Sequence record: PQ724394.1
Length of the DNA stretch: 64,000 nucleotides
Reading direction: 5' to 3' (one strand)
From: a phage
Of the stretch, positions 3,989 to 57,250 are shown piece after piece (within the stretch, counting starts at the first letter, position 1; each line of letters starts with the position of its first letter). A program made the translations under genes and the position numbers. The notes under the pieces are model-generated. The model was not told the DNA's origin, did no database searches, and was given only the letters and a program-made list of their open reading frames with translations.

Positions 3989-3994
3989 CAAAAA

Positions 3995-4014
3995 AGGAGA
4001 GCTTACGCTCTCCT
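3995..4014. terminator. Bidirectional hairpin terminator between convergent gene 54 and ORF 4023-4313
   Basis: Perfect inverted repeat AGGAGAGC-ttac-GCTCTCCT, T-run on one side. Confidence 0.6.
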
Positions 4015-4022
4015 TTAGGGGT

Positions 4023-8618: not shown

Positions 8619-8634
8619 AAGGCCCGAAGGCCTT
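8619..8634 (-). terminator. UUCG-tetraloop hairpin (on transcript GGCCUUCGGGCC) followed by UUUUAU
   Basis: Inverted repeat AAGGCC-cgaa-GGCCTT between small ORF stop and alt-B start. Confidence 0.55.
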
Positions 8635-12353: not shown

Positions 12354-12368
12354 AATATTTTCCTCAAA

Positions 12369-12384
12369 GGAGGCCGAAGCCTCC
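12369..12384 (-). terminator. UUCG-tetraloop hairpin (inter-cistronic)
   Basis: GGAGGC-cgaa-GCCTCC. Confidence 0.5.
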
Positions 12385-13299: not shown

Positions 13300-13321
13300 A
13301 TGGGACTCCGAAGAGTCCCAT
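13300..13321 (-). terminator. Rho-independent terminator (UUCG hairpin + U-run) after small ORF 13325-13486
   Basis: ATGGGACTC-cgaa-GAGTCCCAT; on minus transcript followed by UUUUUGUUUC. Confidence 0.65.
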
Positions 13322-18918: not shown

Positions 18919-18952
18919 GTCCAATTCCTCAATTTTTATAATCCGTAGGAGC

Positions 18953-21831: not shown

Positions 21832-21839
21832 AGCAATAA

Positions 21840-21853
21840 GGGGCCGAAGCCCC
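21840..21853 (-). terminator. UUCG-tetraloop hairpin between nrdB and denA
   Basis: GGGGC-cgaa-GCCCC. Confidence 0.5.
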
Positions 21854-21858
21854 ATTCC

Positions 21859-23037
21859 TTAAAAATATTTCTTGTATGACGCCATTACTTTTTCATCGAC
21901 ATCATTATCAATTTGTGCTACAAGGTAAGAACTGATTTCCACTTCCTGAGGAGCAGCCTGTACAGCATCAGAGTTCAGGTATTCACGAATCCAAGGATAT
22001 GGATGGCGAGTAGGGGCATCAGTAATAGGACATGGTAAGCCACATTGCTTCATACGAGAAACTGTCAGGTAATCGACAAAAGCACCCATGTTCTGAGTAT
22101 TTAATCCAGGGCAAGTACCATCTTTGAACAGGTGGGCAGCCCACTCTTTTTCTTGTCGGTTAACTTCCATGAAAATATCAACTGCTTCTTGTTCACACTC
22201 TTGGGCAATTTTAACCCATTCATCACCATCTGTACCAAGCTGGAGTTGACGGATAATGTACTGGGTGCCTTTAAGGTGAAGCTGTTCATCACGTGCAATG
22301 AACTTCATAATCTTAGCATTACCTTCCATGATTTCCATATTCTTATGGAAGTTAAAGGTACATGCGAAAGATACGTAAAAACGAATAGCTTCCAATGCGT
22401 TGATTACATGCAGGCAGAGGTAAAGAGAGCGCATTAGTTCACGTTTCCAATACATTTCATGCTCTATGGCATCTTCAATATCATCTTCGTCTGAGTTAAT
22501 TTCTTTTTGGTACTCAATATCAGCTTTAGCATTCTGCCAATATCTAGTTTTCTCAATAACATCGTCATAATAACGACCAATAGATTCAGCACGTTTCATG
22601 ATAGCTTCATCTAACAGAATTTCATCAAATACCTTAGATGGGTCTGTATAGAGGTTACGCATGATATGGGTATAAGAACGAGAGTGAATGGTTTCACTAA
22701 AGGTCCATGTAGCCACCCAAGTATCAAGGCTAGGGTCTGAAATCAAGGCTTGGAGTGCAGCAGACGGCGCACGTCCCTGGATACTATCCAGAAGTGATTG
22801 ATACTTCAGGTTATTGGTAAAAATATTTTGCTGGAATTGTGGAAGCTTATTAAACTGGGCAGCATCCATCATCAAGTTAACTTCTTCAGGACGCCAGAAG
22901 AAACTCAACTGTTTTTCACAAAGCTCTTCGAATACTTTATGACGTTGGATATCGTAACGAGCAATACCCAATCCTGAACCAAAGAACATCGGTTCGACTA
23001 AAACATCAACTGGGGTAGTATTAAAAACTGTAGACAT
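21859..23037 (-). CDS. nrdB: Ribonucleotide reductase small subunit (class Ia)
   Basis: Start taken at MSTVFNTTPVD.. as in T4 NrdB; one contiguous ORF. Confidence 0.9.
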   Translation of the reverse strand: MSTVFNTTPVDVLVEPMFFGSGLGIARYDIQRHKVFEELCEKQLSFFWRPEEVNLMMDAAQFNKLPQFQQNIFTNNLKYQSLLDSIQGRAPSAALQALISDPSLDTWVATWTFSETIHSRSYTHIMRNLYTDPSKVFDEILLDEAIMKRAESIGRYYDDVIEKTRYWQNAKADIEYQKEINSDEDDIEDAIEHEMYWKRELMRSLYLCLHVINALEAIRFYVSFACTFNFHKNMEIMEGNAKIMKFIARDEQLHLKGTQYIIRQLQLGTDGDEWVKIAQECEQEAVDIFMEVNRQEKEWAAHLFKDGTCPGLNTQNMGAFVDYLTVSRMKQCGLPCPITDAPTRHPYPWIREYLNSDAVQAAPQEVEISSYLVAQIDNDVDEKVMASYKKYF

Positions 23038-28283: not shown

Positions 28284-28307
28284 TTTATTTTCCTCATGTA
28301 GTTGATA

Positions 28308-28341
28308 GGTCTATAGTATCATGCCTATAGACCTTGTAAAC
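28308..28341 (-). promoter_or_regulatory. Canonical early-promoter stem-loop cassette (GTTTAC -35, 17 nt, TACTAT -10; stem GGTCTATAG/CTATAGACC)
   Basis: Minus strand GTTTAC at 28341-28336, TACTAT at 28318-28313; 9-bp inverted repeat with 8-nt loop. Confidence 0.55.
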
Positions 28342-29357: not shown

Positions 29358-29431
29358 TTTTATTTCCTCATGTAGTTGATAAGTCTATAGTATCATGTTT
29401 AAAGGAGTTGTAAACCATTAAATGCCAAAAA

Positions 29432-29449
29432 GGAAGACCGAAGTCTTCC
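29432..29449 (-). terminator. Rho-independent terminator after gene 32 (UUCG hairpin + U-run)
   Basis: GGAAGAC-cgaa-GTCTTCC; on minus transcript followed by UUUUUGG. Confidence 0.65.
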
Positions 29450-29466
29450 CATTATAAATCAATAAC

Positions 29467-32730: not shown

Positions 32731-35700
32731 ATGGCTGATATTTTAAAACCTGCATTCCGTGCTACATCCGGACTCGATGCTGCGGGCGAGAAAGTTATCA
32801 ATGTTGCCAAAGCCGATTACAATGTACTAGATGATGGCGTCAACGTTGAATTCTTTATAGATGAGAACACCATCCAGGCGTACGACGAGACGCGCGGATA
32901 TAAGAAAGGGTTTGCAGTAATCCATGACCAACGTATTTGGGTTGCTCAACGTGATATCGCTGCACCAGCCGGAACTTTTGTACCTGGTTATTGGACCGCT
33001 ACCCGTACTGACCCTAAATGGATTACAGTAGCATCTCCTACGCGCCAGTTGGCTTCCGGTGAATATATTGCGGTGGACTCAGCTGCTAGCTTTACTACAT
33101 TTACTCTGCCTCCTAACCCTACTGATGGTGATACCATTGTAATCAAGGATATCGGCGGCCGTGTAGGTTATAATGAAATCAAGGTTCAATCTAGTTCTGC
33201 TCCAGGCGGTGGTAATCAGAAAATTGTTCGTTTTGGTAACCAGTTCTCTGAAACTCTGATAACCAAACCTTTTTCTTATAACATGCTTATCTTTGCTAAC
33301 CGCCTTTGGCATTTCTGGGAAGCCGGTAACGAAGAACGTGGTATTCGTGTAGAGCCTAACACTGCACAGTTCCAAGCTCAAGCGGGTGATAACGTTTTAC
33401 GTCGTTATACTTCAGGTGCAGTAATTAAATTTACTCTTCCTAAGTATGCGAACCAAGGTGACATGGTTAAAACCGTAGATATCGATGGTCTTGGAAGTAA
33501 GTTCCACTTAATCGTTGAAACCTTTGATGCATCATCTTCATTGGGTAAGCCTGGTCAGCATAGCATGGAATTCCGTACCTCTGGTGATGGGTTCTTTGTT
33601 TATAACTCTGTTGAAAAAGTGTGGTATGTTTGGGACGGCGACCGTCAAACTCGTCTGCGTGTTATTCGTGATGACGTAGAACTTTTGGCTAACGAAAGTA
33701 TTATTGTTTTTGGTCCTAATAACACAACTCCACAAACTATTAATATCACTTTACCTACTAACGTAGCACAAGGCGATACTATTAAAATCGCATTGAACTA
33801 TCTTCGTAAAGCACAGACAGTAAATATTAAGGCTGCTGTAGGTGATAAAATTGCTTCTTCGGTTCAATTGCTTCAGTTCCCTAAACGTTCCGAATATCCA
33901 CCAGATACTGAATGGGTGTTGAATGATGTATTGACCTTTAATGGCAATATAAGTTATACCCCGGTTATTGAACTGAGTTATATCGAAGACACCACTACAG
34001 GTGCTAAATATTGGGTTGTTGCCCAGAACGTTCCTACGGTAGAACGTGTGGATTCTAAGGATGATTTAACTCGTGCTCGTCTTGGTGTTATTGCCCTTGC
34101 GTCTCAGACCCAGGCTAACGTTGACCATGAAAATAATCCTGAAAAAGAACTTGCAATTACTCCTCAGACCTTAGCCAATCGTGTTGCCACTGAAACTCGT
34201 CGTGGTATTGCTCGTATTGCTACAACTGCTCAGGTAAACCAAGACACCACTTTCGCTTTCCAGGATGATTTGATTATTTCTCCTAAGAAATTAAACGAAC
34301 GTACTGCAACCGAAACTCGTCGTGGTGTAGCTGAAATTGCTACGCAACAGGAAACTGATGCTGGTGTTGACGATACCACCATTATTACTCCTAAGAAGCT
34401 ACAGACGCGCCAGGGCACTGAAAGTCTTTCAGGTATTGTAAAATATACCTCTACGGTAGATACCACTCCTGCGACTGCTAGGGACACTGTAGGTACTAAC
34501 GTTTATAATAAGAACGTAGGCAATTTGGTTATTTCTCCTAAAGCTTTAGACCAATATAAAGCTACTCAAGCCCAACAAGGTACGGTATATCTTTCTACCC
34601 AATCAGAAGTTAATACTGGACAATCTGCTAGTGGATTTGCTAACAGTGCGGTTTCTCCTGAAACGTTGCATGCTCGTGTGGCTCTTGATACTCGTACAGG
34701 GTTAATTGAAATTGCTACGCAACAGGAAACTGATACTGGAACTGATTATACTCGTGCGGTAACGCCTAAGACGTTAAATGATAGGAAAGCTACGGAAGGA
34801 TTGACTGGTATTGCTAGAATTGCAACCCAGGTAGAATTTGATGCAGGCACGTTAGATAATGTTATTTCAACTCCGTTGAAAATTAAAACAAGACTTAATG
34901 ATACTGCTAGAACTTCTGTCTCAGCAGCCAGCGGTTTGATTGAATCAGGAACCTTATGGAACCATTATACACTAGATATTAGAGAAGCAAATGAGACTCA
35001 ACGTGGTACCGCTCGTCTGGCTACCCAGACCGAAGTCAATGTTGGCACTGATGACAAAACCATCATCACTCCTTTGAAATTACACTCTAAAAAATCTACT
35101 GAAAGTTCTGAAGGTATTATTCGTGTTGCAACGAATACCGAAACCACTGCAGGAACTTCTAAAGTTCTGGCTGTAAGCCCTTCTGGTTTAAAATATGTAG
35201 TACAGTCCGAAACCACTTGGGAAGCTACTGCACTTCGTCGTGGATTTGTTAAATTGACCGAAGGTGCTTTGACTTACTCAGGAAATAAAGTTACCGGTTC
35301 CGGTGTTAAATTTAACTCAGGTACAGGCCTTTATGAGAATGACGATACTGTTCTGAATGCGGCCAACTATCCTAAAACAGGTTATGCGGTTTCATCTTAT
35401 GAGATGAATAAAACTTTGCAGAACTTTTTACCTATAAATGCTACGGCTGTGAACTCTGAGAAATTGGATGGTCTGGATTCACTTCAGTTCATTCGTAGAG
35501 ACGTCGACCAAACGGTTAATGGTTCTTTAACCCTGACCAAACAATTGAACCTGGCAGCCCCTCTGGTGTCTTCTAGTACTGCTACATTTACGGATGTTAC
35601 AGCTACTAATTCTACCTTTGGTACAGTGAATGTTGTTAACGGAACCAATAAATGGAAAATAACATCTCCATCTACTGGAACTACATTAACGATTGGCGAT

Positions 35701-36699
35701 ACTACTAACGTATTGACATTAAACACTGCTACGGGTAATGTTGCTGCACTTAACAACCTTAGCGCTGGTAATGATGTTCAAGCCAAAAATAACTTTGTGT
35801 TAAATGGAAGAACTATCGCAACCACCACCGGTGAAGCTTCTGGTGCTACATTGTCTTTAGGCGATAATTCTCAGAACTTGGTACTTAAAACATTAGATGC
35901 AGGAAATATCGTAGCTAATGGTGGCGGTGCATTTAAAGTTCTTACCGAGAAAAACGCAGTAGAAATTGTAGACAGAAACTTTGTTAACCAAGCCGGTGAT
36001 ACAATGTCCGGTGTACTCCGTGTGAATGCTCCGGTTCGTGTATTTGGTACTAAGCCTACATTAGCTTCTCAGGTTCCTACGGCAGAGACAGTTGGCTTCT
36101 GGTCTGTTGATATCAATGACGAGGCCACTTATAGTAAGTTCCCTGGTTATTGGACTATGAAGACCAAACGACAAGTTAATATTGACACGGTCCAAACTAA
36201 ACCTGCTGGTGTTTCTGATGAGGTATGGAATGCTTCCGGTTGGTTAACAGAAACCGGTGCATTTAGTTCTCCGGCTATTCGTTATCGTAACGAAGACGGT
36301 AGTTTTGGTGATGAAGTTCTTGGTACGTCTGGTCAGAAATTACGTGGTGCTTGGTTTGATTATTCTGTTCGTGATAAGGAAGTTAAATATCCTGGTACAT
36401 TAACTCAGTTTGGCAATACGTTAGATTCATGTTATCAGGATTGGGTGTGCTATCCTACAGGACTGAATGGTGGTACTATTCGTTATACACGTACCTGGCA
36501 GAAGAATAAAAACGCATGGACCACGTTCTCTATGGTCTATACAGCAGATAACCCTCCTTCTGCGGAAGATGTTGGTGCACTGCCGGCAGATAACGCCACA
36601 ATGGGTAACATTACAATCCTCGATTGGTTGCGTATTGGTAACGTTCGCATTATTCCTGACCCAGTCACTAAATCCGTTAAGTTTGAGTGGATTGAATAA
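32731..36699 (+). CDS. 34: Long tail fibre proximal subunit gp34
   Basis: 1322 aa; internal repeats; first gene of 34-35-36-37 operon. Confidence 0.9.
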   Translation: MADILKPAFRATSGLDAAGEKVINVAKADYNVLDDGVNVEFFIDENTIQAYDETRGYKKGFAVIHDQRIWVAQRDIAAPAGTFVPGYWTATRTDPKWITVASPTRQLASGEYIAVDSAASFTTFTLPPNPTDGDTIVIKDIGGRVGYNEIKVQSSSAPGGGNQKIVRFGNQFSETLITKPFSYNMLIFANRLWHFWEAGNEERGIRVEPNTAQFQAQAGDNVLRRYTSGAVIKFTLPKYANQGDMVKTVDIDGLGSKFHLIVETFDASSSLGKPGQHSMEFRTSGDGFFVYNSVEKVWYVWDGDRQTRLRVIRDDVELLANESIIVFGPNNTTPQTINITLPTNVAQGDTIKIALNYLRKAQTVNIKAAVGDKIASSVQLLQFPKRSEYPPDTEWVLNDVLTFNGNISYTPVIELSYIEDTTTGAKYWVVAQNVPTVERVDSKDDLTRARLGVIALASQTQANVDHENNPEKELAITPQTLANRVATETRRGIARIATTAQVNQDTTFAFQDDLIISPKKLNERTATETRRGVAEIATQQETDAGVDDTTIITPKKLQTRQGTESLSGIVKYTSTVDTTPATARDTVGTNVYNKNVGNLVISPKALDQYKATQAQQGTVYLSTQSEVNTGQSASGFANSAVSPETLHARVALDTRTGLIEIATQQETDTGTDYTRAVTPKTLNDRKATEGLTGIARIATQVEFDAGTLDNVISTPLKIKTRLNDTARTSVSAASGLIESGTLWNHYTLDIREANETQRGTARLATQTEVNVGTDDKTIITPLKLHSKKSTESSEGIIRVATNTETTAGTSKVLAVSPSGLKYVVQSETTWEATALRRGFVKLTEGALTYSGNKVTGSGVKFNSGTGLYENDDTVLNAANYPKTGYAVSSYEMNKTLQNFLPINATAVNSEKLDGLDSLQFIRRDVDQTVNGSLTLTKQLNLAAPLVSSSTATFTDVTATNSTFGTVNVVNGTNKWKITSPSTGTTLTIGDTTNVLTLNTATGNVAALNNLSAGNDVQAKNNFVLNGRTIATTTGEASGATLSLGDNSQNLVLKTLDAGNIVANGGGAFKVLTEKNAVEIVDRNFVNQAGDTMSGVLRVNAPVRVFGTKPTLASQVPTAETVGFWSVDINDEATYSKFPGYWTMKTKRQVNIDTVQTKPAGVSDEVWNASGWLTETGAFSSPAIRYRNEDGSFGDEVLGTSGQKLRGAWFDYSVRDKEVKYPGTLTQFGNTLDSCYQDWVCYPTGLNGGTIRYTRTWQKNKNAWTTFSMVYTADNPPSAEDVGALPADNATMGNITILDWLRIGNVRIIPDPVTKSVKFEWIE

Positions 36700-36707
36700 G
36701 AGGTATT

Positions 36708-37829
36708 ATGGAAAGATTTATGGCAGAATTTGGACAAGGATATGTCCAGGTTCCTACATTATCTGAAAACAATGCTGTAAGATATAAACTTAGTATAGCT
36801 GGTAGTTGTACTAAGTCTACCACAAAAGCATATGTTAAATTTCAAGATGGGGACTTCGGTCCCCAGAATTTTCAAAATGGACTAAACCTTATAGAAATTG
36901 ATGTTAGTGCCGAACCTAAAGTGGTGGCTAACAAAACTTATAGCTTTACAAAAGATTTTGATGTTATCTCTGAAGCTTTTATTACTTACATAAGTTCAAT
37001 ACCGGCCAATAGAATAGTTTGTTTAGTATCTTCCGGTAGATTAAATGCTTCACAAAATCTTATTGATTGGTTCCGTGCAGCAGGAAGTACCGCATTTCCA
37101 TCTAAATGGCTAATAGACCGCTTCGAGCCGTCTTATTCGGCCTTTTACGTGTCTGGTAGAAATACTATAGTGATGGAACACGTCCTTTATAATGATGGGG
37201 TGTTTGTTGAAGATGTTTCTACACCATTAGAAGTCGTTTTTGACGATATCAGTGATGTAGGCGGGACCGGGTATCCTATAAGAATAGTGGAAGATGAAAA
37301 CACTTATCTAAGTAATGGTGGAGAGGAAATAAAACGTTTCCCTACTGAATCTCCTACTACTCCTTGTGCCGATTATAACATGAAGCCAGGAGAATTCTTT
37401 TATCTTAAATTCCAAATGATGTGTGACCAGGAATTAAAAGATTTAGGGACTTCTCAAATGTCTGTTAGATTTTTTGATGCCTCAGGTGCTTTAACAGGGT
37501 CGGTTAATATGGAAGTTCCGCCTAATGTCCCTGCCGGGTCTTGGATGACTTTTGAGCGGGTAATTGAAGTTCCTGCTAATACGGAAACATTTACATTGTA
37601 TGCAAGAAAAACAGTGGCCGATGGAGTCGGTGGTGTACGTAATGTGATGTTTGGGGAAGTATCAGAGCCAGAATCTCAACCTAAATCGGCTGAATTTGGT
37701 GTAAACGGTATCCGTATGAATTTCGGTACTGAAACTAAGAATATGGGTACTACCATAGCCCAGTTATACGATAAAACAGGTACTAAACCAGGTCAGGTTT
37801 GGGTGTCTGAATTTAGAGAAAAATATTAA
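36708..37829 (+). CDS. 35: Long tail fibre hinge connector gp35
   Basis: 373 aa; synteny. Confidence 0.85.
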   Translation: MERFMAEFGQGYVQVPTLSENNAVRYKLSIAGSCTKSTTKAYVKFQDGDFGPQNFQNGLNLIEIDVSAEPKVVANKTYSFTKDFDVISEAFITYISSIPANRIVCLVSSGRLNASQNLIDWFRAAGSTAFPSKWLIDRFEPSYSAFYVSGRNTIVMEHVLYNDGVFVEDVSTPLEVVFDDISDVGGTGYPIRIVEDENTYLSNGGEEIKRFPTESPTTPCADYNMKPGEFFYLKFQMMCDQELKDLGTSQMSVRFFDASGALTGSVNMEVPPNVPAGSWMTFERVIEVPANTETFTLYARKTVADGVGGVRNVMFGEVSEPESQPKSAEFGVNGIRMNFGTETKNMGTTIAQLYDKTGTKPGQVWVSEFREKY

Positions 37830-37847
37830 GGAACCTTCGGGTTCCTT
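37828..37847 (+). terminator. Rho-independent terminator after gene 35 (UUCG hairpin + U-run)
   Basis: AAGGAACC-ttcg-GGTTCCTT followed by TTTCGTTTT. Confidence 0.65.
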
Positions 37848-37904
37848 TTTCGTTTTCTACGGCCATAAATATATAAAAGGCTATAACTCCCAAAGGAAAC
37901 TCAA

Positions 37905-38552
37905 ATGGCAGATTTAAAATTAGGTTCTACAGCAGGAGGTTCGGTATTATGGCACCAAGGTAATTTTCCTTTAACGCCTGTATCAAATGACCTTCTTTAC
38001 AAAACGTATAAAGTTTACACCGAGTATAATAAACCTCAAGCAGTTGATAACGATTTCGTTTCAAAAGCTAACGGTGGTAATTATCAGAACAACGTGTATT
38101 TTGAAAAAGGTTTGACCTTTAATGATACTAATGGATACGGTATTAAATTAGGAGCAAGAACTGGCGGAGCCCCGTTCACAGCTTCTTTCCGTATTAAAGG
38201 TGCTTTTGGGTATGAAACGGAAGATGGTACTCCGTTTGTGATATTTGACCCAAATACAACAGTTGGTGCTAAACGTCTTACCGTAATGGGTGATTCATTA
38301 TTCCGTCAAGTATATGATGAATCAGGACGCGTATTCAGCCCAGGCAACACCCCTACTAAAGCTCAAGTTGGATTGCCATTAGTAGATAACGCAAAACAGG
38401 TCCAAATAAATAATACTAATATGCAAACAATGACTGGGGTACTTGCGGCTCCTAACTTCATTTCATTAAATCCGGCCTCTGACGCAGGACATGTTCCGCG
38501 TTTTGACCAGATTGTTCAAAAAGATTCTATCCAAGATTTTGGTTATTATTAA
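37905..38552 (+). CDS. 36: Long tail fibre distal connector gp36
   Basis: 215 aa; synteny. Confidence 0.85.
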   Translation: MADLKLGSTAGGSVLWHQGNFPLTPVSNDLLYKTYKVYTEYNKPQAVDNDFVSKANGGNYQNNVYFEKGLTFNDTNGYGIKLGARTGGAPFTASFRIKGAFGYETEDGTPFVIFDPNTTVGAKRLTVMGDSLFRQVYDESGRVFSPGNTPTKAQVGLPLVDNAKQVQINNTNMQTMTGVLAAPNFISLNPASDAGHVPRFDQIVQKDSIQDFGYY

Positions 38553-38560
38553 GAGGCATT

Positions 38561-41500
38561 ATGGCTACTTTAAAACAGATACAATTTAAAAGAAGTAAAG
38601 TAGCTGGTGTACGTCCTACGCCAGCGCAGTTGGCTGAAGGCGAGCTGGCTATTAACTTAAAAGACCGTTTGTTATTTACTAAAGATGATACTGGAGCGAT
38701 TATCGACCTTGGCTTTGCTAAAGGTGGTAATATTGACGGTAACGTTGTTCATAAAGGAAATTATAATCAAACTGGGGATTACACCCTAAATGGTACCTTT
38801 ACCCAAACCGGCGATTTTAATTTAACCGGTATTGCTCGTGTAACTCGTGATATTATTGCCGCAGGTCAGATAATGACCCATGGTGGGGAACTTATTTCCA
38901 AGAGCGCCTCAACTTCTCACCTTCGATTCTTTGATGGCAGTGACCGTGAACGTGGTATTATCTTTTCTCCTAATAATGCAGGAGCAACCAACCAAGTAGT
39001 TAATATTCGCGTACAAGATTATTCTACCGCAGGCGAAAGCACTTATGCATTTTCAGGCAATGGTTTGTTCACTTCACCTGAAGTATCAGCATGGAAATCT
39101 ATTTCGTCTCCACAAATTCTGACCGATAAAGTTATTACAAACGGGAAGAAGACCGGCGATTATGATATCTATTCATTGGCCGATAATACCCCATTGGCAG
39201 AAAGTGAAACAGCTATTAACCATCTCCGTGTTATGCGAAATGCTGTAGGCGCGGGTATATTTCACGAAGTTAAAGATAATGACGGAATAACCTGGTATGC
39301 CGGCGACGGCTTAGAAGCTTATCTTTGGTCATTTACCTGGTCCGGTGGATTGAAAGCAGGCCATTCTATTTCCGTAGGCACCCCAGGTAACTCTAAAGGA
39401 TATTCTGAATTAGGAAATGCTTCAATTGCTCTTGGCGATAATGACACCGGGCTAAAATGGCATCAGGATGGATATTATTTCAGCGTTAATAACGGCACAA
39501 GAACTTTCCTGTACGGCCCAGCAGAAACCACCAGTCTTAGAAAAATGGTTATGGGGTATTCTGTAAACGGTACCGATTTAACCACTCCTCCGGCGGAAAA
39601 CTATGCTTTGGCTACTGTTGTCACTTATCATGATAATAACGCATATGGCGATGGCCAAACTCTTTTAGGTTATTACCAAGGCGGCAATTATCACCACTAT
39701 TTCCGTGGTAAAGGTACTACAAACGTTAACACTGCTGGCGGTTTGTTAGTGACTCCTGGTAATATTGATGTTGTTGGTGGTTCTGTTAATATCGATGGTA
39801 GAAATAATGCTTCTACGCTGATGTTTAGAGGTAACACAACTGGTAGTAGTTCAGTTGATAATATGACAATTTCTGTATGGGGTAATACGTTTACTAATCC
39901 TAGTGTAGGTAATCGTAAAAACGTTATGGAAATTTCTGACGCAACTAGTTGGATGAGTTATATTCAAAGACTTACTACTGGTGAAGTAGAAATGAACGTC
40001 AATGGTTCATTTGAATCATCCGGTGTTACTGCTGGAAATAGAGGAGTTCACACAACAGGCGAAATTTCGTCTGGAGCAGTAAATGCGCTTCGCATTTGGA
40101 ATGCAGATTATGGAGCCATTTTTAGACGTTCAGAAGGCAGTCTTCATATTATTCCAACTGCTTACGGTGAAGGTAAAAATGGTGATATCGGACCACTTCG
40201 TCCATTTAGTTTGGCTTTAGATACCGGTAAGGTTGTTATTCCTGACCTAGATTTGAGTTATGCTTCTTTTGCAGCAAACGGTTATATTAAATTCGGTGGA
40301 CATGGTGCAGGTGCAGGCGGTTACGATATTCAATATGCACAAGCAGCTCCTGTTTTCCAAGAAATTGATGATGACGCGGTAAGTAAATATTATCCTATTG
40401 TTAAGCAGAAATTCTTACAAGGAAAAGCTGTTTGGTCTTTAGGTACTGAAATTAATTCCGGGACTTTTGTTTTACACCATCTTAAAGAAGACGGGACTGA
40501 AGGTCATACCTCAAGATTTAATGCTGATGGTACAGTTAACTTCCCTGATAACGTGCAGGTTGGTGGCGGTGAAGCTACTATTGCTCGAAACGGTAATATC
40601 TGGTCTGATATTTGGAAAACGTTTACTTCAGCAGGCGATGTAACTAATATTCGCGATGCCATTGCTACTCGTGTTTCTAAAGAAGGCGACACGATGACCG
40701 GCCGTTTAACCATCAATGCAAACTCGGATGCTATTGTTATTAACAGTGCTGAAACCCAATCTGGTTATGTGAAAGGACAAAAAGCTGGTGTTGATAACTG
40801 GTATATAGGCAATGGCGGCGCTGATAATGCCCTATCGTTTTATAGTTTCCAAACTAATTCAGGCGTTAATATTCATAATACCGGGGAAATTTCTTTAGCC
40901 CCCCAAGGGTCGGATACTTTTTATTTTAATAGGGACCGTCTTTATATAAAGGGTTCACAATGGGCTGCACATCAGGCTGGCGATTGGGGAAACCAATGGA
41001 AGCAAGAAGCCCCTGTGTTTGTAGATTTTGGTAATGTTGGTAATGATAGTTATTATCCGATTATCAAAGGAAAATCTGGTATTACTAACGAAGGATACGT
41101 ATCCGGTGTAGATTTTGGTATGCGCCGCATCACTAATACATGGGCGCAAGGTATTATTCGTGTAGGTAACCAGGAAAACGGTTCCGACCCGCAAGCTATC
41201 TATGAATTCCACTCTAATGGTACTTTTTATGCTCCGAGCTTACTTAAGAGCAACAGAGTATCGGCCGGCGGTGGAGACCCTGTATGGGGTGGGCCGTGTA
41301 TTGTTATCGGCGATAACGACACCGGATTGGTGTGGGAAGCGGACGGTATTTTCAACGCATATGCAAACGGTCAAGGGGTGTTTAGTTTTAGAGCCGGACT
41401 TGCCCAGACATTTGGTAACGTTAACTTACACTGTAATGCGGGTATGTATGTTCGTGATAACATCGATGTTAACGACGTTTATATTCGTTCTGATATTCGT

Positions 41501-41806
41501 TGTAAGTCGGAAATTAAGCTTATAGAGAATGCCCAAGAGAAATCTAAACTCTTAGGTGGTTATACTTATCTGCTTAAAAACTCTGTCACAGATGAAGTTA
41601 AACCATCTGCAGGTTTAATTGCTCAGGAAGTTCAAGAAGTATTGCCTGAACTTGTGACTGAAGATAAAGAGACCGGCTTACTTCGTTTAAACTATAACGG
41701 TATTATCGGTTTAAATACTGCTACTATCAACGAGCATACTGATGAAATCAAGGAATTGAAATCTGAAATTGCTGAGTTGAAAGCATTAATTAAATCATTA
41801 TTATAA
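38561..41806 (+). CDS. 37: Long tail fibre distal subunit gp37
   Basis: 1081 aa; synteny; C-terminal region resembles an intramolecular chaperone domain. Confidence 0.9.
41489..41803 (+). other. C-terminal intramolecular-chaperone-like domain of gp37 (S74-peptidase-like signature)
   Basis: [14 protein letters not shown] ... GGYTYLL ... [16 protein letters not shown] ... coiled-coil tail; resembles the self-cleaving C-terminal chaperone of phage fibre/endosialidase proteins. Confidence 0.5.
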
Positions 41807-41810
41807 GAAA

Positions 41811-41824
41811 GGGCCTTCGGGCCC
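41811..41824 (+). terminator. UUCG-tetraloop hairpin between genes 37 and 38 (attenuator/stabiliser candidate)
   Basis: GGGCC-ttcg-GGCCC immediately before the GGAGG RBS of gene 38. Confidence 0.45.
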
Positions 41825-41835
41825 TGGAGGTTTTT

Positions 41836-42615
41836 ATGGCAGTAGTAGGAATTCCTGGTTGGATTGGAACTTCGGCCGTTGCGGAAACAGGCCAACGCTG
41901 GATGTCAGCAGCTTCTAGAGAATTACGTCTAGGGAACCCATCTTGGATGTCGCAATTTGCTGGTAGGTCTCGTGAGATTATTCATACCCTTGGAGCGGAC
42001 CACAACTTCAACGGGCAATGGTTTAGAGACCGTTGTTTTGAAGCCGGCGGTGCTCCTATAGTGTTTAATATCACAGGCGACTTAGTATCATATACTAAAG
42101 ATGTTCCGTTGTTCTTTATGTACGGTGATACCCCTAACGAATATGTTACTTTGAATATTCATGGTGGTGTTCATATGTGGGGCCGAGGTGGCAACGGTAC
42201 AGTAAATGGAAGCCCAGGCACTAATGGTGGTGACGTAATCCAAAATGATATTGGTGGACGACTTCGCATTTGGAACTATGGTGTGATAGCCTCCGGCGGT
42301 GGCGGCGGCGGTGGCGTATCATTACAGAATAGTTGGCCTGCAAATTCTACAGCAGGTGGCGGTGGCGGCAGACCATTTGGTCTCGGCGGCGGTGGTGTTA
42401 ATTGGCCAGGCGGCAATGCTAGTTATGTTGGTCCAGGTGGCGGTGGTAATACAAGCCAATTTGGCGCTGGCAATGGTGGTGATGCTGGAGGTTGGGGCGG
42501 AGACGGATGGGGTAGTAACTTATCCAGGTCAGGTGGTGGTGCTCCTGGTAGAGCAGTATTCGGTTCCTCCCCATCATGGGGCGCTACAGGCACTATCTAC
42601 GGCTCTTGGTTATAA
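41836..42615 (+). CDS. 38: Tail fibre adhesin gp38 (T2-type, glycine-rich motifs)
   Basis: N-terminus [63 protein letters not shown] as in T2-type gp38; C-terminal half with poly-Gly tracts. Confidence 0.85.
42286..42570 (+). repeat. Glycine-rich low-complexity repeats within gene 38
   Basis: Runs of GGN codons (GGGGGGG, GGGGG, GGGG, GGGG) separated by short variable segments; locally GC-rich. Confidence 0.8.
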
Positions 42616-42631
42616 TACGAAAGTATTAAAT

Positions 42632-42639
42632 TATAAATA
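42632..42639 (+). promoter_or_regulatory. Late promoter TATAAATA for holin t
   Basis: Exact TATAAATA about 20 nt upstream of AAGGAG RBS and ATG 42658. Confidence 0.6.
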
Positions 42640-42657
42640 TCTTTAAAGGAGAAAAGT

Positions 42658-43311
42658 ATGGAACCAAAAGTAGGATTTTCATTATCAGACCTACTTTTTG
42701 GACTTCTTGATAGAATTTTTAAAGATACTTCTTCCGGGAAAGTAGTTTTTTCCCGGGTCCTAGTCGTAATATTATTGTTCTTTATGGCATTAGTTTGGTA
42801 TAAAGGCGAGCATATTCTAAACTTTTATAAAGAGACAACTTATGCCTCTTATACTGAAATGATTAGACAAGACCAGGACAATAGATTTAAAATTGCGGCT
42901 ATCGAGCAGCTCCGAATAGTGCATTCTTCTTCAGGCGCAGACTTCACAGCAATATATTCTTTTAGGCCGACCAACATGAATTATTTTGTGGACATGGTTG
43001 CTTATGAGGGTAAATTACCGGAAACGGTAGACGCAAAAAATACGGGAGGATTTCCGATTGACAAAACGTCAGTAGAGTATATGGCGGGAGTTAACGGGAA
43101 CTATTTTGAATCATCTACTGAATCTGTGTTTCTCCCTACAAAGGAGAAAACCCATTTCACTTATATGTTTTCATGCCCGTTTTTTAATTTGGATAACATC
43201 TATGCCGGCTCGATATCATTATACTGGTATGACATCAAACCGGATTTAGGATTTCCTAGACTTTCGTCTATGTGTGGTCAGGCCGGGAGGACATTAGGTC
43301 GAACTCGTTAA
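42658..43311 (+). CDS. t: Holin / lysis inhibition sensor T
   Basis: 217 aa; N-terminal TM segment; conserved FSCPFFNLDNIYAGSI and KTHFTYMF blocks as T4 holin T. Confidence 0.9.
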   Translation: MEPKVGFSLSDLLFGLLDRIFKDTSSGKVVFSRVLVVILLFFMALVWYKGEHILNFYKETTYASYTEMIRQDQDNRFKIAAIEQLRIVHSSSGADFTAIYSFRPTNMNYFVDMVAYEGKLPETVDAKNTGGFPIDKTSVEYMAGVNGNYFESSTESVFLPTKEKTHFTYMFSCPFFNLDNIYAGSISLYWYDIKPDLGFPRLSSMCGQAGRTLGRTR

Positions 43312-46026: not shown

Positions 46027-46055
46027 ATAGTATCATGTTTAAAGCAGAAGTAAAC
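46027..46055 (-). promoter_or_regulatory. Early-promoter cassette for motA (GTTTAC -35, 17 nt, TACTAT -10)
   Basis: Minus strand GTTTAC 46055-46050, TACTAT 46032-46027; TGCTTTA element at 46046-46040. Confidence 0.55.
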
Positions 46056-46093
46056 TTTATTAGAGCTCTTTTTCAAGAGCTCTAATAAAGTAC

Positions 46094-46321
46094 TTACTTA
46101 ATGTTCAGATTACGAACTTCGATTTCGTCTTCAGGGGCAAAATCAAACTGTTTGAATTCTGTGTCACCTTTAAATTTAAAAATCATTGTGAAGAAAGTCA
46201 GAACACCGGGTTTTTCTTCACGAACTCCACAGATATCATATTCAATACCATCTACAACCAGTTTGTTAGCAGTCAGAGCATTTTTAGCTTTAACGATTTC
46301 GTTTTCGATTTTAAATTTCAT
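46094..46321 (-). CDS. Hypothetical protein (75 aa)
   Basis: ORF with GGGAGA RBS and cassette upstream. Confidence 0.5.
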   Translation of the reverse strand: MKFKIENEIVKAKNALTANKLVVDGIEYDICGVREEKPGVLTFFTMIFKFKGDTEFKQFDFAPEDEIEVRNLNIK

Positions 46322-46368
46322 TTTTGTATCTCCCGGTTGTTTGTTTCAGTTCATTTATTTGATAGGTC

Positions 46369-46398
46369 TATAGTATCATGTTTAAAGCAGATGTAAAC
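46369..46398 (-). promoter_or_regulatory. Early-promoter cassette (GTTTAC -35, 18 nt, TACTAT -10)
   Basis: Near-identical copy of the motA cassette. Confidence 0.55.
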
Positions 46399-46422
46399 AC
46401 TTTTTTGCACTAAACCCAAAAA

Positions 46423-46438
46423 GGAACCCGAAGGTTCC
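46423..46438 (-). terminator. Rho-independent terminator (UUCG hairpin + U-run) after small ORF
   Basis: GGAACC-cgaa-GGTTCC; on minus transcript followed by UUUUUGGG. Confidence 0.65.
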
Positions 46439-46543
46439 TTACTTTTTAAAGTGAGCCGCTATTAGACCTATAGCTAAGCCCGTTGCCAGGCCTAGGATAA
46501 CAGCAAAGATACAGAGTAACAAGAACTCAACTCCAAGGCTCAT
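46439..46543 (-). CDS. Small hydrophobic peptide (34 aa), coupled to gene 52 stop
   Basis: ATG overlaps gene 52 TGA (ATGA); MSLGVEFLLLCIFAVILGLATGLAIGLIAAHFKK; not in ORF track. Confidence 0.4.
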   Translation of the reverse strand: MSLGVEFLLLCIFAVILGLATGLAIGLIAAHFKK

Positions 46544-48064: not shown

Positions 48065-48225
48065 TTCTTGACCAAGGCTTCCAGAAATTTAACGATTGCA
48101 TCAATTACGAACCAAGTGCAAATAAATCCAACAGCGAAAGGACCTGGAACCCACACACCAGCAGCAAAAAGGGTTACCCACACAATAACAATCACGAGCC
48201 AGATAAAAGTATAAATCGGTTGCAT
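48061..48225 (-). CDS. Small membrane protein (54 aa), Ac-like by position
   Basis: MQPIYTFIWLVIVIVWVTLFAAGVWVPGPFAVGFICTWFVIDAIVKFLEALVKK; two predicted TM segments; position of T4 ac. Confidence 0.4.
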   Translation of the reverse strand: MQPIYTFIWLVIVIVWVTLFAAGVWVPGPFAVGFICTWFVIDAIVKFLEALVKK

Positions 48226-48232
48226 AATTTCC

Positions 48233-48313
48233 TCACAAGCGTCCGAAGACGCCTTTGGTTTTAAGATTGTTACGATAGAACTGCATCACATGTTCGTTAT
48301 GGAAATTACTCAT
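48233..48313 (-). CDS. stp: Stp peptide (26 aa)
   Basis: Translates to [26 protein letters not shown], essentially the T4 Stp sequence as recalled; ATG overlaps ndd stop by 1 nt. Confidence 0.8.
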
Positions 48314-48803: not shown

Positions 48804-48840
48804 CGAGAACCATTATAACATGATTCTCGAGGTTGTAAAC
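48804..48840 (-). promoter_or_regulatory. Early promoter for ndd (GTTTAC -35, 17 nt, TATAAT -10 in loop of CGAGAA/TTCTCG stem)
   Basis: Minus strand GTTTAC 48840-48835, TATAAT 48817-48812. Confidence 0.6.
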
Positions 48841-51143: not shown

Positions 51144-51333
51144 CGAAATAAGAAATACGAACCTCTAAACAATGAGCATATGCACCCATCGCATCTAGTT
51201 GTGCAATCAGTAACCCTTGTTGACGGATATCAAGAGTTTCAAAAACACCACCTTTAATAAACTCTTCGAGAGCATTAATTTTCAGGACCAGTTGGTCGTA
51301 TTCTTCAATTACACGTGCTTGGAAACCTAACAT
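51136..51333 (-). CDS. Hypothetical protein (65 aa)
   Basis: ORF with GAGGA RBS right after hairpin. Confidence 0.45.
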   Translation of the reverse strand: MLGFQARVIEEYDQLVLKINALEEFIKGGVFETLDIRQQGLLIAQLDAMGAYAHCLEVRISYFGE

Positions 51334-51345
51334 AATTCCTCATTA

Positions 51346-51361
51346 GGAGGCCGAAGCCTCC
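51346..51361 (-). terminator. UUCG-tetraloop hairpin after rIIB
   Basis: GGAGGC-cgaa-GCCTCC between rIIB stop and next gene RBS. Confidence 0.5.
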
Positions 51362-55086: not shown

Positions 55087-55141
55087 ATTCTCACCTCTTA
55101 GAGAATCGTATCACACTTTTAATCTGTTGTAAACCCCGAAA

Positions 55142-55157
55142 AGGGCCTTGCGGCCCT
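55142..55157 (-). terminator. GNRA-tetraloop hairpin + U-run (terminator candidate)
   Basis: AGGGCC-ttgc-GGCCCT; on minus transcript GGGCCGCAAGGCCC then UUUUC. Confidence 0.55.
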
Positions 55158-55160
55158 TAA

Positions 55161-57234: not shown

Positions 57235-57250
57235 AAGGGCCGAAGCCCTT
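57235..57250 (-). terminator. Rho-independent terminator (UUCG hairpin + UUUUAU) after lipoprotein gene
   Basis: AAGGGC-cgaa-GCCCTT. Confidence 0.6.

What the first reader, a model, noticed from the sequence alone, without database searches (positions are those of the whole stretch)
37828..37847. Recurrent UUCG/GNRA tetraloop hairpins as terminators and inter-cistronic elements
At least twelve short GC-rich stems closed by cgaa/ttcg (UUCG on the transcript) or GCAA loops occur at gene boundaries: 3995, 8619, 12369, 13300, 21840, 29432, 37828, 41811, 46423, 51346, 55142 and 57235. Most are followed by a U-run and behave as terminators. Some sit between a stop codon and the next RBS inside operons (8619, 12369, 21840, 41811, 51346), where they more likely act as RNA-stability or processing determinants or translational couplers. 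The hairpin at 41811, between gp37 and the gp38 RBS, could tune adhesin stoichiometry.
Basis: partly seen in the sequence, partly recalled or inferred. Interest (0 to 1): 0.45.

Follow-up and report, generated by a model that had tools for sequence, protein, structure and literature searches.

The report
UUCG hairpins punctuating T4-type phage genes
The short GC-rich hairpins with UUCG loops are real and conserved, but they are the extra-stable C(UUCG)G hairpins already described in phage T4 messenger RNA: some end transcripts and others sit just before the next gene's ribosome-binding site, so the finding is a correct rediscovery of something ordinary.

Summary
The window is a JS98-like T4-type phage (Dhakavirus). 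All 12 listed hairpins exist at the stated coordinates. Ten have UUCG on the transcript, one has GCAA and one has GUAA/UUAC. Perfect-stem UUCG hairpins number 12, against 0.06 expected from shuffles. Every one has a C-G closing pair and carries UUCG on the transcribed strand.

In relatives, including T4, the hairpins recur at the same gene junctions with different, compensating stems. Their context splits them into two classes.
- **Terminators.** These have a conserved U-tract followed by a new early, middle or late promoter: 3995 (minus strand), 13300, 29432, 37828, 46421, 55142, 57235 and, more weakly, 8619.
- **Non-terminating hairpins.** These lack a U-tract and abut the next Shine-Dalgarno sequence: 12369, 41810, 48239 and 51346. 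The hairpin at 21840 lies between an SD-like motif and the denA AUG.

This is the C(UUCG)G hairpin phenomenon of T4 (Tuerk 1988), together with PeSL-type terminator-promoter cassettes and split ribosome-binding sites. The most interesting by-product is a covarying hairpin inside gene 35.

The parts
37828..37847 (+). Headline hairpin AAGGAACC-UUCG-GGUUCCUU + UUUCGUUUUC. It is the intrinsic terminator after gene 35 and overlaps the stop codon by 2 nt.
   Evidence: the hairpin forms in the MFE fold, -11.6 kcal/mol, z -3.1. In relatives 15/17 sequences keep a hairpin, with 8 different 5' arms, mean 7.3 U in the tail window, and a late-promoter motif after it in 100%.
37864..37871 (+). Late-promoter-like CATAAATA upstream of gene 36. 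Most relatives outside the JS98 group have TATAAATA.
3993..4016 (.). Shared hairpin between convergent gp54 (+) and alt.-3 (-): AAAGGAGAGC-GUAA-GCUCUCCUUU on the - strand and UUAC on the + strand. A strong U-tract exists only for the - strand transcript.
   Evidence: z -6.0 and -4.3. Relatives have 5-8 stem variants and free loop variation including inversion. U-tract mean is 7.8 on the - strand against 5.3 on the + strand.
8619..8634 (-). AAGGCC-UUCG-GGCCUU after alt.1. It has a weak U-tract (UUUUAUGG) and is followed by CATAAATA at 8605-8612, upstream of alt.
   Evidence: In 12 relatives' sequences there are 8 stems and 11 UUCG loops, and the late-promoter motif follows in 100%. T4 has UAAAGGCC-UUCG-GGCCUUUA + TATAAATA.
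12369..12384 (-). GGAGGC-UUCG-GCCUCC between the 30.7 stop and the 30.6 SD (GAGGAAAAUAUUAUG, 12351-12365). No U-tract.
   Evidence: Relatives have 7 stems with loops UUCG, GAAA or UACG, and the SD begins within 6 nt in 81%.
13300..13321 (-). AUGGGACUC-UUCG-GAGUCCCAU + UUUUGUUU: a canonical terminator followed by an early promoter at 13245-13273.
   Evidence: (z -5.0). Relatives have 7 stems, mean 7.8 U, and an early -35 motif follows in 94%.
21840..21853 (-). GGGGC-UUCG-GCCCC lying between UAAGGAAU (nrdB stop plus an SD-like motif, 21854-21861) and the denA AUG (21829-21831). This is a split ribosome-binding-site layout.
   Evidence: Of 12 relatives' sequences, 11 have a UUCG hairpin (6 different stems), preceded by UAAGGA/UAAAGGA and followed by 4-10 nt without an SD before the AUG. 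T4 has UAA-GGAG-[UGGGCC-GCAA-GGCCCA]-UUUUAUU-AUG.
29431..29450 (-). (G)GGAAGAC-UUCG-GUCUUCC(U) + UUUUGG: the terminator after gene 32, followed by an early promoter at 29387-29414.
   Evidence: z -3.3. Every gp32 relative has a hairpin plus U-run here with a lineage-specific stem. T4 has GGGGACC-CUAGA-GGUCCCC-U6.
36848..36865 (+). UGGGGAC-UUCG-GUCCCCA inside gene 35 (codons 47-52).
   Evidence: Relatives show four stem variants, all perfectly paired, arising from double substitutions, two of which change amino acids.
41810..41825 (+). AGGGCC-UUCG-GGCCCU, 3 nt after the gene 37 stop and directly before the gene 38 SD (GGAGGUUUUUAUG, 41826-41838). No U-tract.
   Evidence: Relatives have 7 stems, and the SD begins within 6 nt in 92%. 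T4 has a UUCG hairpin at the same junction, but there the SD lies upstream of it.
46054..46091 (-). 17-bp hairpin with a GAAA loop whose 3' end abuts an early promoter (46027-46054) upstream of motA.
   Evidence: (-23.6 kcal/mol).
46421..46440 (-). AAGGAACC-UUCG-GGUUCCUU + UUUGGGUU: a terminator followed by an early promoter at 46370-46397. Identical in sequence to the 37828 hairpin.
   Evidence: Relatives keep the U-tract and the early -35 motif in 100%.
48237..48254 (-). (AG)GCGUC-UUCG-GACGC(UU), with two terminal G-U pairs, within the last codons of stp (48233-48313, 26 aa). The stop UGA overlaps the next SD (GAGGAAAUUAUG, 48223-48234).
   Evidence: T4 stp has GGCGUC-UUCG-GACGCC at the same place.
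51346..51361 (-). GGAGGC-UUCG-GCCUCC, 10 nt after the rIIB stop and 4 nt before the denB.1 SD (GAGGAAUUAUG, 51331-51341). Identical to the 12369 hairpin.
   Evidence: Relatives show 18 hairpins with 9 stems, 17 of them with UUCG loops, and the SD begins within 6 nt in 78%.
55141..55158 (-). AAGGGCC-GCAA-GGCCCUU + UUCGGGG: a terminator-like hairpin followed by an early promoter at 55105-55133.
   Evidence: z -3.5. One relative has UUCG in the same stem.
57235..57250 (-). AAGGGC-UUCG-GCCCUU + UUAUGCUUU after 39.1. Its tail overlaps a MotA-box middle-promoter motif (TGCUUUA-N12-TAATAT, 57207-57231) upstream of gene 39.
   Evidence: T4 has AAAGGCC-UUCG-GGCCUUU at the same junction.

Best explanation
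These are RNA-level punctuation elements of a T4-type phage genome. Each is a short G-C stem capped by the extra-stable C(UUCG)G tetraloop, or occasionally a GNRA loop, encoded at cistron boundaries so that the stable loop sits on the mRNA strand. They fall into two functional classes.

**Class T** (3995 for the minus-strand transcript, 13300, 29432, 37828, 46421, 55142, 57235, the missed 46054-46091 hairpin, and weakly 8619). The hairpin is followed directly by a U-tract and acts as an intrinsic, factor-independent terminator or attenuator for host RNA polymerase. It closes one transcription unit immediately before the promoter of the next (early, MotA-dependent middle, or late). The early-promoter cases are PeSL-type terminator-promoter cassettes.

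**Class S** (12369, 41810, 48239, 51346 and 21840). The hairpin has no U-tract and lies 0-4 nt upstream of the next gene's Shine-Dalgarno sequence, or, for denA, between the SD and the AUG. The downstream gene has no room for its own promoter, so these hairpins cannot be efficient terminators. Most likely they are nuclease-resistant caps. As a 3' hairpin the structure would block 3'-5' exonucleases for the upstream cistron. After cleavage in the AU-rich linker it would form a 5' stem-loop for the downstream cistron. They would also be local structure that sets the geometry of the adjacent ribosome-binding site; at denA the hairpin would bring a distant SD close to the AUG.

Shown here: the existence of the hairpins, their excess over chance, the strand bias, positional conservation with compensatory stem changes, and the two conserved contexts. 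Inferred: actual termination, RNA stabilisation and translational effects.
For: - **Excess over chance:** 12 perfect UUCG hairpins against 0.063 in shuffles.
- **Strand bias, which argues for RNA rather than DNA function:** UUCG is on the transcribed strand in 12/12 in the window. Among distinct hairpins in the fetched relatives whose coding strand was clear, the count is 57 sense to 1 antisense.
- **Positional conservation:** 158 of 186 distinct junction sequences from relatives have a hairpin of -7.5 kcal/mol or better within 45 nt of the orthologous stop codon, against 5% of random windows. Of those loops 96 are UUCG and 7 UACG, and each site has 2-9 different stems.
- **Two classes by conserved context:** the mean number of U in the tail window is 7-8 at 3995(-), 13300, 29432, 37828 and 46421, and 2-4 at 12369, 41810, 48239 and 51346. 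An early -35 motif follows in 91-100% at 13300, 29432 and 46421. A late-promoter motif follows in 100% at 37828 and 8619. The SD begins within 6 nt in 78-92% at 12369, 41810 and 51346.
- **T4:** hairpins occupy most of the same junctions.
- **Literature:** CUUCGG hairpins are abundant in T4, mostly intergenic, and block reverse transcriptase (Tuerk 1988 as summarised in PMC8948821). PeSL stem-loops terminate transcription in a lacZ reporter (PMC2839356). A hairpin between the SD and AUG enhances initiation at T4 genes 38 and 25 (PMC3014915). Intergenic UUCG stem-loops that contain GGAG resist RegB (PMC1702504).
Against: - No transcript 3'-end or 5'-end data exist for this phage, and I found no Term-seq-type map for T4 in the searchable library.
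- For class S the stabiliser role is an inference from position only.
- An in-silico test of whether the hairpins keep the neighbouring SD unpaired gave mixed results: accessibility was lower at two sites, higher at two (one of these scored at the wrong AUG) and unchanged at one.
- Sites 8619, 55142 and 57235 have only moderate U-tracts, so their termination efficiency may be low.
- At rIIB/denB.1 some distant genera do have a U-tract after the hairpin, so the class boundary is not absolute.
- Two hairpins lie in coding sequence (stp and gene 35), which does not fit a purely intercistronic role.
Confidence: 0.8

Rival explanations
1. All of the hairpins, including the ones abutting ribosome-binding sites, are transcription terminators or attenuators. 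The class S hairpins would be leaky terminators that set a step-down in expression of the downstream gene, for example less gp38 than gp37.
For: The hairpins in both classes are the same kind of structure. Site 21840 has 5 U in 8 after the stem. At rIIB/denB.1 some genera carry a U-tract after the orthologous hairpin. PeSL authors describe such stem-loops as 'terminator/attenuator'.
Against: The tails at 12369, 41810, 48239 and 51346 are UUUGAGGA, GGAGGUUU, (U)UGUGAGGAA and UAAUGAGG. Relatives keep only 2-4 U in the tail window. The SD occupies the position where a U-tract would be. The downstream genes have no intervening promoter, so strong termination would silence them.
Confidence: 0.2
2. 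The class S hairpins are primarily translational devices rather than RNA-stability elements. They would position or expose the SD (a split or structured ribosome-binding site). Alternatively they would couple downstream initiation to termination of the upstream ribosome, which must melt a hairpin lying 3-10 nt past the stop codon.
For: T4 has a UUCG hairpin at the gene 37/38 junction that is part of the experimentally supported split ribosome-binding site. The denA junction keeps the order SD-like motif, hairpin, 4-10 nt, AUG in the four genera sampled, with no SD after the hairpin. The stop-to-hairpin distance is only 3-10 nt.
Against: In the window the gene 38 SD lies after the hairpin at a normal 5-nt spacing, so no bridging is needed. 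The same holds at 12369, 48239 and 51346. The accessibility modelling was inconsistent.
Confidence: 0.3
3. The elements act at the DNA level, as palindromes that serve as recombination or shuffling sites (the PeSL model) or as targets of a DNA-binding protein. On this view the RNA hairpins are incidental.
For: PeSL stem-loops have been mapped as recombination crossover points in RB49/phi1. The window has two pairs of identical hairpins (37828 = 46421 and 12369 = 51346). It also has a small ORF flanked by two near-identical early promoters, each preceded by a hairpin. The loop of the 3995 palindrome is inverted between close relatives.
Against: A DNA palindrome has no reason to orient its loop, yet UUCG is on the sense strand in 12/12 here and 57 to 1 in relatives. 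The preferred loops (UUCG, UACG, GNRA) are precisely those that stabilise RNA hairpins. The U-tracts and the placement relative to the SD are transcript-level features.
Confidence: 0.08
4. The hairpins are chance inverted repeats in an AT-rich genome.
For: The generic terminator-like scan is not enriched over shuffles.
Against: There are 12 observed against 0.063 expected for the specific class. The hairpins are conserved and covary at orthologous junctions across genera.
Confidence: 0.01

Closest known systems
C(UUCG)G hairpins of bacteriophage T4 mRNA (Tuerk et al. 1988, PNAS 85:1364; as cited in PMC8948821)
   Same: The motif is the same: (X)n-CUUCGG-(Y)n with a C-G closing pair, abundant and mostly intergenic in T4-type phages. 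T4 itself has such hairpins at the orthologous junctions alt.1/alt, 30.9, stp, rIIB/denB.1, 39.1/39 and 37/38.
   Different: Nothing essential differs. This window is a JS98-like Dhakavirus rather than T4. Some T4 orthologues use other loops (CUAGA after gene 32, GCAA at denA, UUCA at 30.7/30.6).
Intrinsic (rho-independent) terminators of E. coli and T4, e.g. the T4 gene 32 terminator
   Same: The class T sites have a G-C-rich hairpin with an immediately following U-tract at the end of a transcription unit. The hairpin after gene 32 is positionally orthologous to the T4 gene 32 terminator.
   Different: The class S hairpins lack the U-tract. Stems are short (5-9 bp), so termination efficiency is unknown. 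3995 is a shared hairpin for convergent transcripts, with a good U-tract on one side only.
PeSL composite terminator-promoter cassettes of T4-like phages (Arbiol et al. 2010, PMC2839356; Comeau et al. 2014, PMC4122927)
   Same: The window has a stem-loop followed within about 10-50 nt by a strong early promoter matching the T4/PST-type consensus TTTACW-N17-TAYWAT, at 13300, 29432, 46421, 46054 and 55142. It also has a small ORF bracketed by two near-identical promoter copies. Site 57235 resembles the 'PmSL' middle-promoter variant.
   Different: PeSLs were defined as repeated cassettes associated with indels in hyperplastic regions. I did not test indel association here. The hairpins at 37828 and 8619 precede late promoters, and the class S hairpins have no promoter at all.
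Split translation-initiation regions of T4 genes 38 and 25 (reviewed in PMC3014915, section 29)
   Same: Site 21840 has an SD-like motif, then a stable hairpin, then a short spacer and the AUG. The linear spacing is 24 nt, or 10 nt with the hairpin folded. This arrangement is conserved in the four genera sampled. The 41810 hairpin occupies the same junction as the T4 gene 38 hairpin.
   Different: At 41810 the SD (GGAGG) lies downstream of the hairpin at a normal 5-nt spacing, so the bridging mechanism does not apply. gp38 here is the unrelated T2/T6-type adhesin. No mutational data exist for denA.
mRNA-stabilising terminal stem-loops (3' hairpins blocking PNPase/RNase II; 5' stem-loops such as the ompA and T4 gene 32 leaders). 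This comparison rests on background knowledge plus PMC8948821 and PMC3014915.
   Same: These are small, very stable hairpins flanked by AU-rich single-stranded linkers at cistron boundaries of polycistronic RNAs that are processed and degraded by host RNase E and exonucleases.
   Different: No processing sites or half-lives are known for this phage. This is a functional analogy only.

Membership tests
C(UUCG)G extra-stable tetraloop hairpin (Tuerk 1988) | Loop UUCG on the RNA (sense) strand | tested here: met
   UUCG is on the transcribed strand at all 12 perfect-stem hairpins. In relatives the count is 57 sense to 1 antisense. Sites 3995, 55142 and 46054 are GNRA or other loops, not UUCG.
C(UUCG)G extra-stable tetraloop hairpin (Tuerk 1988) | C-G closing base pair and a Watson-Crick stem of 2-8 or more bp | tested here: met
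   All 12 have a C before and a G after the loop, with stems of 5-9 perfect pairs.
C(UUCG)G extra-stable tetraloop hairpin (Tuerk 1988) | Predominantly intergenic location in the phage genome | tested here: met
   10 of 12 lie between cistrons. The exceptions are the 3' end of stp and gene 35.
C(UUCG)G extra-stable tetraloop hairpin (Tuerk 1988) | Unusual thermal stability; blocks reverse transcriptase | not testable with these tools
   Only computed energies are available: -8.8 to -14.7 kcal/mol for the bare hairpins. The hairpins form in the MFE folds.
Intrinsic terminator | G-C-rich hairpin immediately followed by a U-tract | tested here: met
   Met at 3995(-), 13300, 29432, 37828 and 46421, with 6-8 U in the 10-nt tail window conserved in relatives. 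Moderate at 8619, 55142 and 57235.
Intrinsic terminator | U-tract after the hairpin, assessed for the class S sites 12369, 41810, 48239, 51346 and the intragenic 36848 | tested here: not met
   The tails are UUUGAGGA, GGAGGUUU, (U)UGUGAGGAA, UAAUGAGG and GAAUUUUC. Relatives average 2-4 U.
Intrinsic terminator | RNA 3' ends generated at the site in vivo or in vitro | not testable with these tools
   No transcript-end data are available, and none were found in the library.
PeSL terminator-promoter cassette | Stem-loop plus sigma-70-type early promoter in one short intergenic element | tested here: met
   Early promoters lie 8-26 nt downstream of the hairpins at 13300, 29432, 46421 and 55142, and directly abut 46054-46091. 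This is conserved in 91-100% of relatives at three sites.
PeSL terminator-promoter cassette | Repeated cassette associated with ORFan insertion, deletion or replacement between close relatives | not tested
   The only relevant observation is anecdotal: a small ORF between two near-identical promoters at 46027-46397.
Split ribosome-binding site (T4 genes 38, 25) | SD upstream and AUG downstream of a stable hairpin, with no SD between the hairpin and the AUG | tested here: met
   Met at 21840 (denA): UAAGGAAU-[14-nt hairpin]-UUAUUGCU-AUG. The same order is found in 11 relatives' sequences and in T4.
Split ribosome-binding site (T4 genes 38, 25) | The same arrangement at the gene 37/38 junction (41810) | tested here: not met
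   The SD GGAGG follows the hairpin, 5 nt before the AUG. T4 has the SD before the hairpin.
Split ribosome-binding site (T4 genes 38, 25) | Stem-destabilising mutations lower translation initiation | not testable with these tools
   This needs reporter or toeprint experiments.

The most novel reading that the evidence does not exclude
On this reading, the hairpin inside gene 35 (36848-36865) and the class S hairpins together form a conserved post-transcriptional punctuation layer in JS98-like phages. They would set the relative dosage of neighbouring cistrons in the same transcript, for example gp34 to gp35 or gp37 to gp38. In gene 35 the selection on RNA structure would be strong enough to override protein sequence, because the stem is maintained by paired substitutions that change two amino acids.
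Probability: 0.2. Interest if true: 0.5.

Novelty: already known. Interest (0 to 1): 0.18.

Why it matters
The finding matters mainly as annotation. The hairpins, together with the promoters that follow them, mark the boundaries of early, middle and late transcription units in a JS98-like phage. That is useful for anyone engineering such phages or interpreting their transcriptomes.

The comparative data also give clean examples of structure conservation with sequence turnover. They correct one probable start-codon annotation (denA). They flag a covarying hairpin inside the gene 35 coding region that I did not find described. None of this changes current understanding of T4-type gene expression.

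Tried and rejected
- **Rfam.** A scan of the whole window at gathering thresholds gave no hits. These hairpins are too small to be curated families.
- **Generic terminator scan.** The terminator-like scan is not enriched over shuffles, so I built a specific tetraloop test instead.
- **'Insulator' idea for class S.** I tested whether the hairpin keeps the adjoining SD unpaired by partition-function folding of native sequences against arm-disrupted sequences. The results were inconsistent, and at 51346 the script picked the wrong AUG. I treat this test as inconclusive.
- **Extended helix around 41810.** The MFE fold pairs the end of gene 37 with the spacer and AUG and bulges out the SD. It consists only of A-U and G-U pairs, its register shifts in relatives and its z-score is -1.4. 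I did not adopt it.
- **Literature.** Tuerk 1988 and Miller 2003 are not held in the library, so I cite them through papers that summarise them. Searches for Term-seq or 3'-end maps of T4 and for a described denA split ribosome-binding site found nothing relevant.
- **More gene 35 relatives.** A further IMG/VR scan returned only genomes already in hand.
- **Adhesin stoichiometry at 41810.** I considered this and rejected it as a specific claim, because the same layout occurs at unrelated early-gene junctions.
Full report
**What the window is.**
- Region 36000-44000 matches JS98-like T4-type phages at 89-94% identity (JS98, NC-G, Ec2-ASingh).
- Using the JS98 and T4 annotations, the window runs through gp29-gp54 on the + strand and alt...rnh on the - strand.
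- It continues with tail-fibre genes 34-38 and t on the + strand (32731-43311), then asiA...rIIB, rIIA, 39...srd on the - strand.
- GC content is about 40%.

**Checking the observation.**
- Ten have CGAA/TTCG in the DNA so that the transcript reads UUCG.
- Site 55142 reads GCAA on the transcript.
- Site 3995 reads GUAA on the minus-strand transcript and UUAC on the plus-strand transcript.
- Among hairpins with a perfect stem of at least 5 bp, at least 3 G-C pairs and a 4-nt loop, 12 of 36 carry UUCG/CGAA.
- The 12 observed compare with a mean of 0.063 and a maximum of 2 in 300 dinucleotide-preserving shuffles.
- Every one has a C-G closing pair, and every one has UUCG on the strand that is transcribed locally.
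- In the MFE folds of short windows around the 13 sites tested, the hairpin forms each time.
- A Rfam scan found nothing.

**Comparative evidence.** I fetched about 80 loci around gp32, rIIB, DNA ligase, gp36 and gp35 relatives from IMG/VR, plus JS98 and T4. In each I located the stop codon orthologous to the one preceding each hairpin and examined the next 110 nt.
- Of 186 distinct junction sequences, 158 have a hairpin of -7.5 kcal/mol or better starting within 45 nt of the stop. Only 5% of random 110-nt windows from the same loci do.
- Of those 158 loops, 96 are UUCG and 7 UACG. A few are GNRA and some are pentaloops.
- Each site shows 2-9 different 5' arms, so the stem sequence turns over while pairing is kept.
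- Examples after gene 32 are GGGAAGAC, AAGGGGACC, AUGGGAGAC, AAAGGGACC and AUGGGAACC, all followed by a U-run.
- After rIIB there are nine different stems, and 17 of 18 loops are UUCG.
- Over all fetched loci, distinct UUCG hairpins whose local coding strand was unambiguous are oriented 57 sense to 1 antisense. This asymmetry is the main argument that the elements work as RNA and not as DNA palindromes.

**Two classes.** The conserved context separates the sites cleanly.

*Class T.*
- The hairpin is followed by a U-tract, with a mean of 7-8 U in the 10-nt tail window at 3995(-), 13300, 29432, 37828 and 46421. A promoter then follows.
- An early promoter of the form TTTAC(A/T)-N-CATGATACTAT follows 13300, 29432, 46421 and 55142, and abuts 46054-46091.
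- The late-promoter motif [T/C]ATAAATA follows 37828 and 8619 in 100% of relatives. T4 has canonical TATAAATA at both places.
- A MotA box plus -10 element (TGCTTTA-N12-TAATAT) follows 57235.
- Site 3995 lies between convergent gp54 and alt.-3 and has a good U-tract only for the minus-strand transcript.
- Several class T hairpins incorporate the AA of the upstream UAA stop codon into the stem base.

*Class S.*
- The hairpin has no U-tract (mean 2-4 U), and the Shine-Dalgarno sequence of the next gene starts within 6 nt. This applies to 12369 (30.7 to 30.6), 41810 (37 to 38), 51346 (rIIB to denB.1) and 48239.
- The hairpin at 48239 lies in the last codons of the 26-aa stp gene. The window encodes [26 protein letters not shown], and T4 has the same hairpin.
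- There is no room for a promoter between hairpin and SD, so these sites must be read through.

**The gene 37/38 hairpin.**
- In T4 the same junction reads UAA-GGAG-[AGGGGC-UUCG-GCCCUU]-CUAAAU-AUG.
- That is the split ribosome-binding site, in which the hairpin brings the SD within reach of the AUG and enhances initiation (PMC3014915).
- In this window the SD follows the hairpin at a normal 5-nt spacing (UAAGAA-[hairpin]-GGAGG-UUUUU-AUG), and gp38 is the unrelated T2/T6-type adhesin.
- Relatives keep the hairpin-SD layout with seven different stems.
- There is no U-tract, so dosage control by termination is unlikely. The same layout at early-gene junctions argues for a generic role rather than an adhesin-specific one.

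**The nrdB/denA hairpin (21840).**
- Every relative, and T4, has UAAGGA (T4: UAA-GGAG), then the hairpin, then 4-10 nt without an SD, then the AUG of denA.
- The linear distance from the SD-like motif to the AUG is 24 nt, or 10 nt with the hairpin folded.
- This meets the sequence-level definition of a split ribosome-binding site. I found no description of it in the searchable library.
- The JS98 and T4 records start denA at an in-frame ATG/GTG at the 5' base of the hairpin. In other genera no in-frame start exists there, and the conserved N-terminus MKEIA begins at the AUG after the hairpin. The downstream AUG is therefore the likely start.

**What is already known.**
[quoted passage not shown] This is Tuerk et al. 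1988 as summarised in PMC8948821. The original paper is not held in the library.
- Stem-loop plus early-promoter cassettes (PeSLs) are described for T4-like phages, with terminator activity shown in a lacZ reporter (PMC2839356; PMC4122927).
- In T4, intergenic stem-loops containing GGAG, often with the UUCG tetraloop, resist RegB (PMC1702504).
- From background knowledge, UUCG and GNRA loops are also over-represented in E. coli intrinsic terminators (d'Aubenton-Carafa et al. 1990). I could not check this reference.

**Mechanism.**
- Class T hairpins are intrinsic terminators or attenuators that close one transcription unit just before the promoter of the next. I put this at about 0.85.
- Class S hairpins cannot be efficient terminators. 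I consider them most likely nuclease barriers for the flanking cistrons and local structure that organises the adjacent ribosome-binding site. I put this at about 0.5, with a purely translational role as the main rival.
- An in-silico SD-accessibility test was inconclusive.
- All functional statements are inferences. What is shown is the excess over chance, the strand bias, the covariation and the conserved context.

**A by-product worth recording.**
- The hairpin inside gene 35 (UGGGGAC-UUCG-GUCCCCA, codons 47-52) is kept in Dhakavirus and VR20-like phages as four perfectly paired variants: GGGGAC/GUCCCC, GGGAAC/GUUCCC, GAGGAC/GUCCUC and GAGGCC/GGCCUC.
- These arise by double substitutions, including Asp to Asn with Pro to Ser.
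- On a protein-anchored alignment, 4 of 7 pairs show changes on both sides. None of 500 shuffles reaches the observed covariation score or percentage of paired cells, and only 3 of 500 reach the observed number of pairs with changes on both sides.
- The hairpin is absent from T4 and VR26.
- It has no conserved U-tract, and its function is unknown.
- BLASTN matches of Tequatrovirus phages to the 5' end of gene 35 (77-80% identity) stop at or just before this hairpin.

**Verdict.** The kind of element is long known in T4-type phages, so overall interest is low.

Noticed in passing
window 36848-36865 (+), inside gene 35: This C(UUCG)G hairpin in coding sequence is maintained in relatives by compensatory double substitutions. 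There are four stem variants, and two of the changes are nonsynonymous (D to N paired with P to S). It is absent in T4 and VR26, has no conserved U-tract, and its function is unknown.
   Followed up: partly
window 36700-36890 (+): The first ~180 nt of gene 35 RNA fold into three hairpins with z = -3.7. Tequatrovirus phages match only the first ~149 nt of this region at 77-80% identity, and similarity stops at the UUCG hairpin. That makes this a possible mosaic boundary.
   Followed up: partly
window 21829-21861 (-), nrdB/denA junction: The conserved order is SD-like UAAGGA, then the hairpin, then 4-10 nt, then the AUG. This looks like a split ribosome-binding site of the T4 gene 38/25 type. 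The JS98 and T4 records start denA at an upstream in-frame ATG/GTG inside the hairpin, but other genera have no start codon there, so the AUG after the hairpin (MKEIA...) is probably the real start.
   Followed up: partly
window 3993-4016: The loop of the palindromic terminator shared by gp54 and alt.-3 is inverted between close relatives. On the + strand the window has TTAC and JS98 has GTAA; other relatives have GTAT or ATAC, or the self-complementary ATAT. This suggests repeated loop inversion by template switching or recombination across the arms.
   Followed up: no
window 48233-48313 (-): This 26-aa [29 protein letters not shown], is Stp, the activator of the host PrrC anticodon nuclease in T4. 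JS98 annotates it only as orf257. Its last codons (GVFGR) are encoded by the UUCG hairpin, and its stop codon overlaps the next SD.
   Followed up: partly
window 37828-37850 and 46418-46440; 12369-12384 and 51346-51361: There are two pairs of identical hairpins at unrelated loci: AAGGAACCTTCGGGTTCCTTTTT (in transcript orientation) and GGAGGCTTCGGCCTCC. This could reflect convergence in a small sequence space or gene conversion between hairpins.
   Followed up: no
window 46027-46440 (-): Two near-identical early promoters (TTTAC(A/T)TCTGCTTTAAACATGATACTAT at 46370-46397 and 46027-46054) are each preceded by a hairpin, and together they bracket a small ORF upstream of motA. This is a PeSL-like cassette arrangement.
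   Followed up: no
window 28307-28334, 48804-48829, 59019-59042, 18946-18969, 58364-58391, 16502-16531 (-): These 8-11 bp inverted repeats have a loop containing the -10 region of an early promoter (for example GTTATA-AT). They resemble the PeSL variant in which the stem-loop overlaps the -10 box.
   Followed up: no
whole window: Early-type promoter matches (TTTACW-N-TAYWAT) lie almost exclusively on the transcribed strand: 18 of the 21 matches are sense, 17 of them on the minus strand. They share an extended consensus, CATGATA(C/T)TAT.
   Followed up: no
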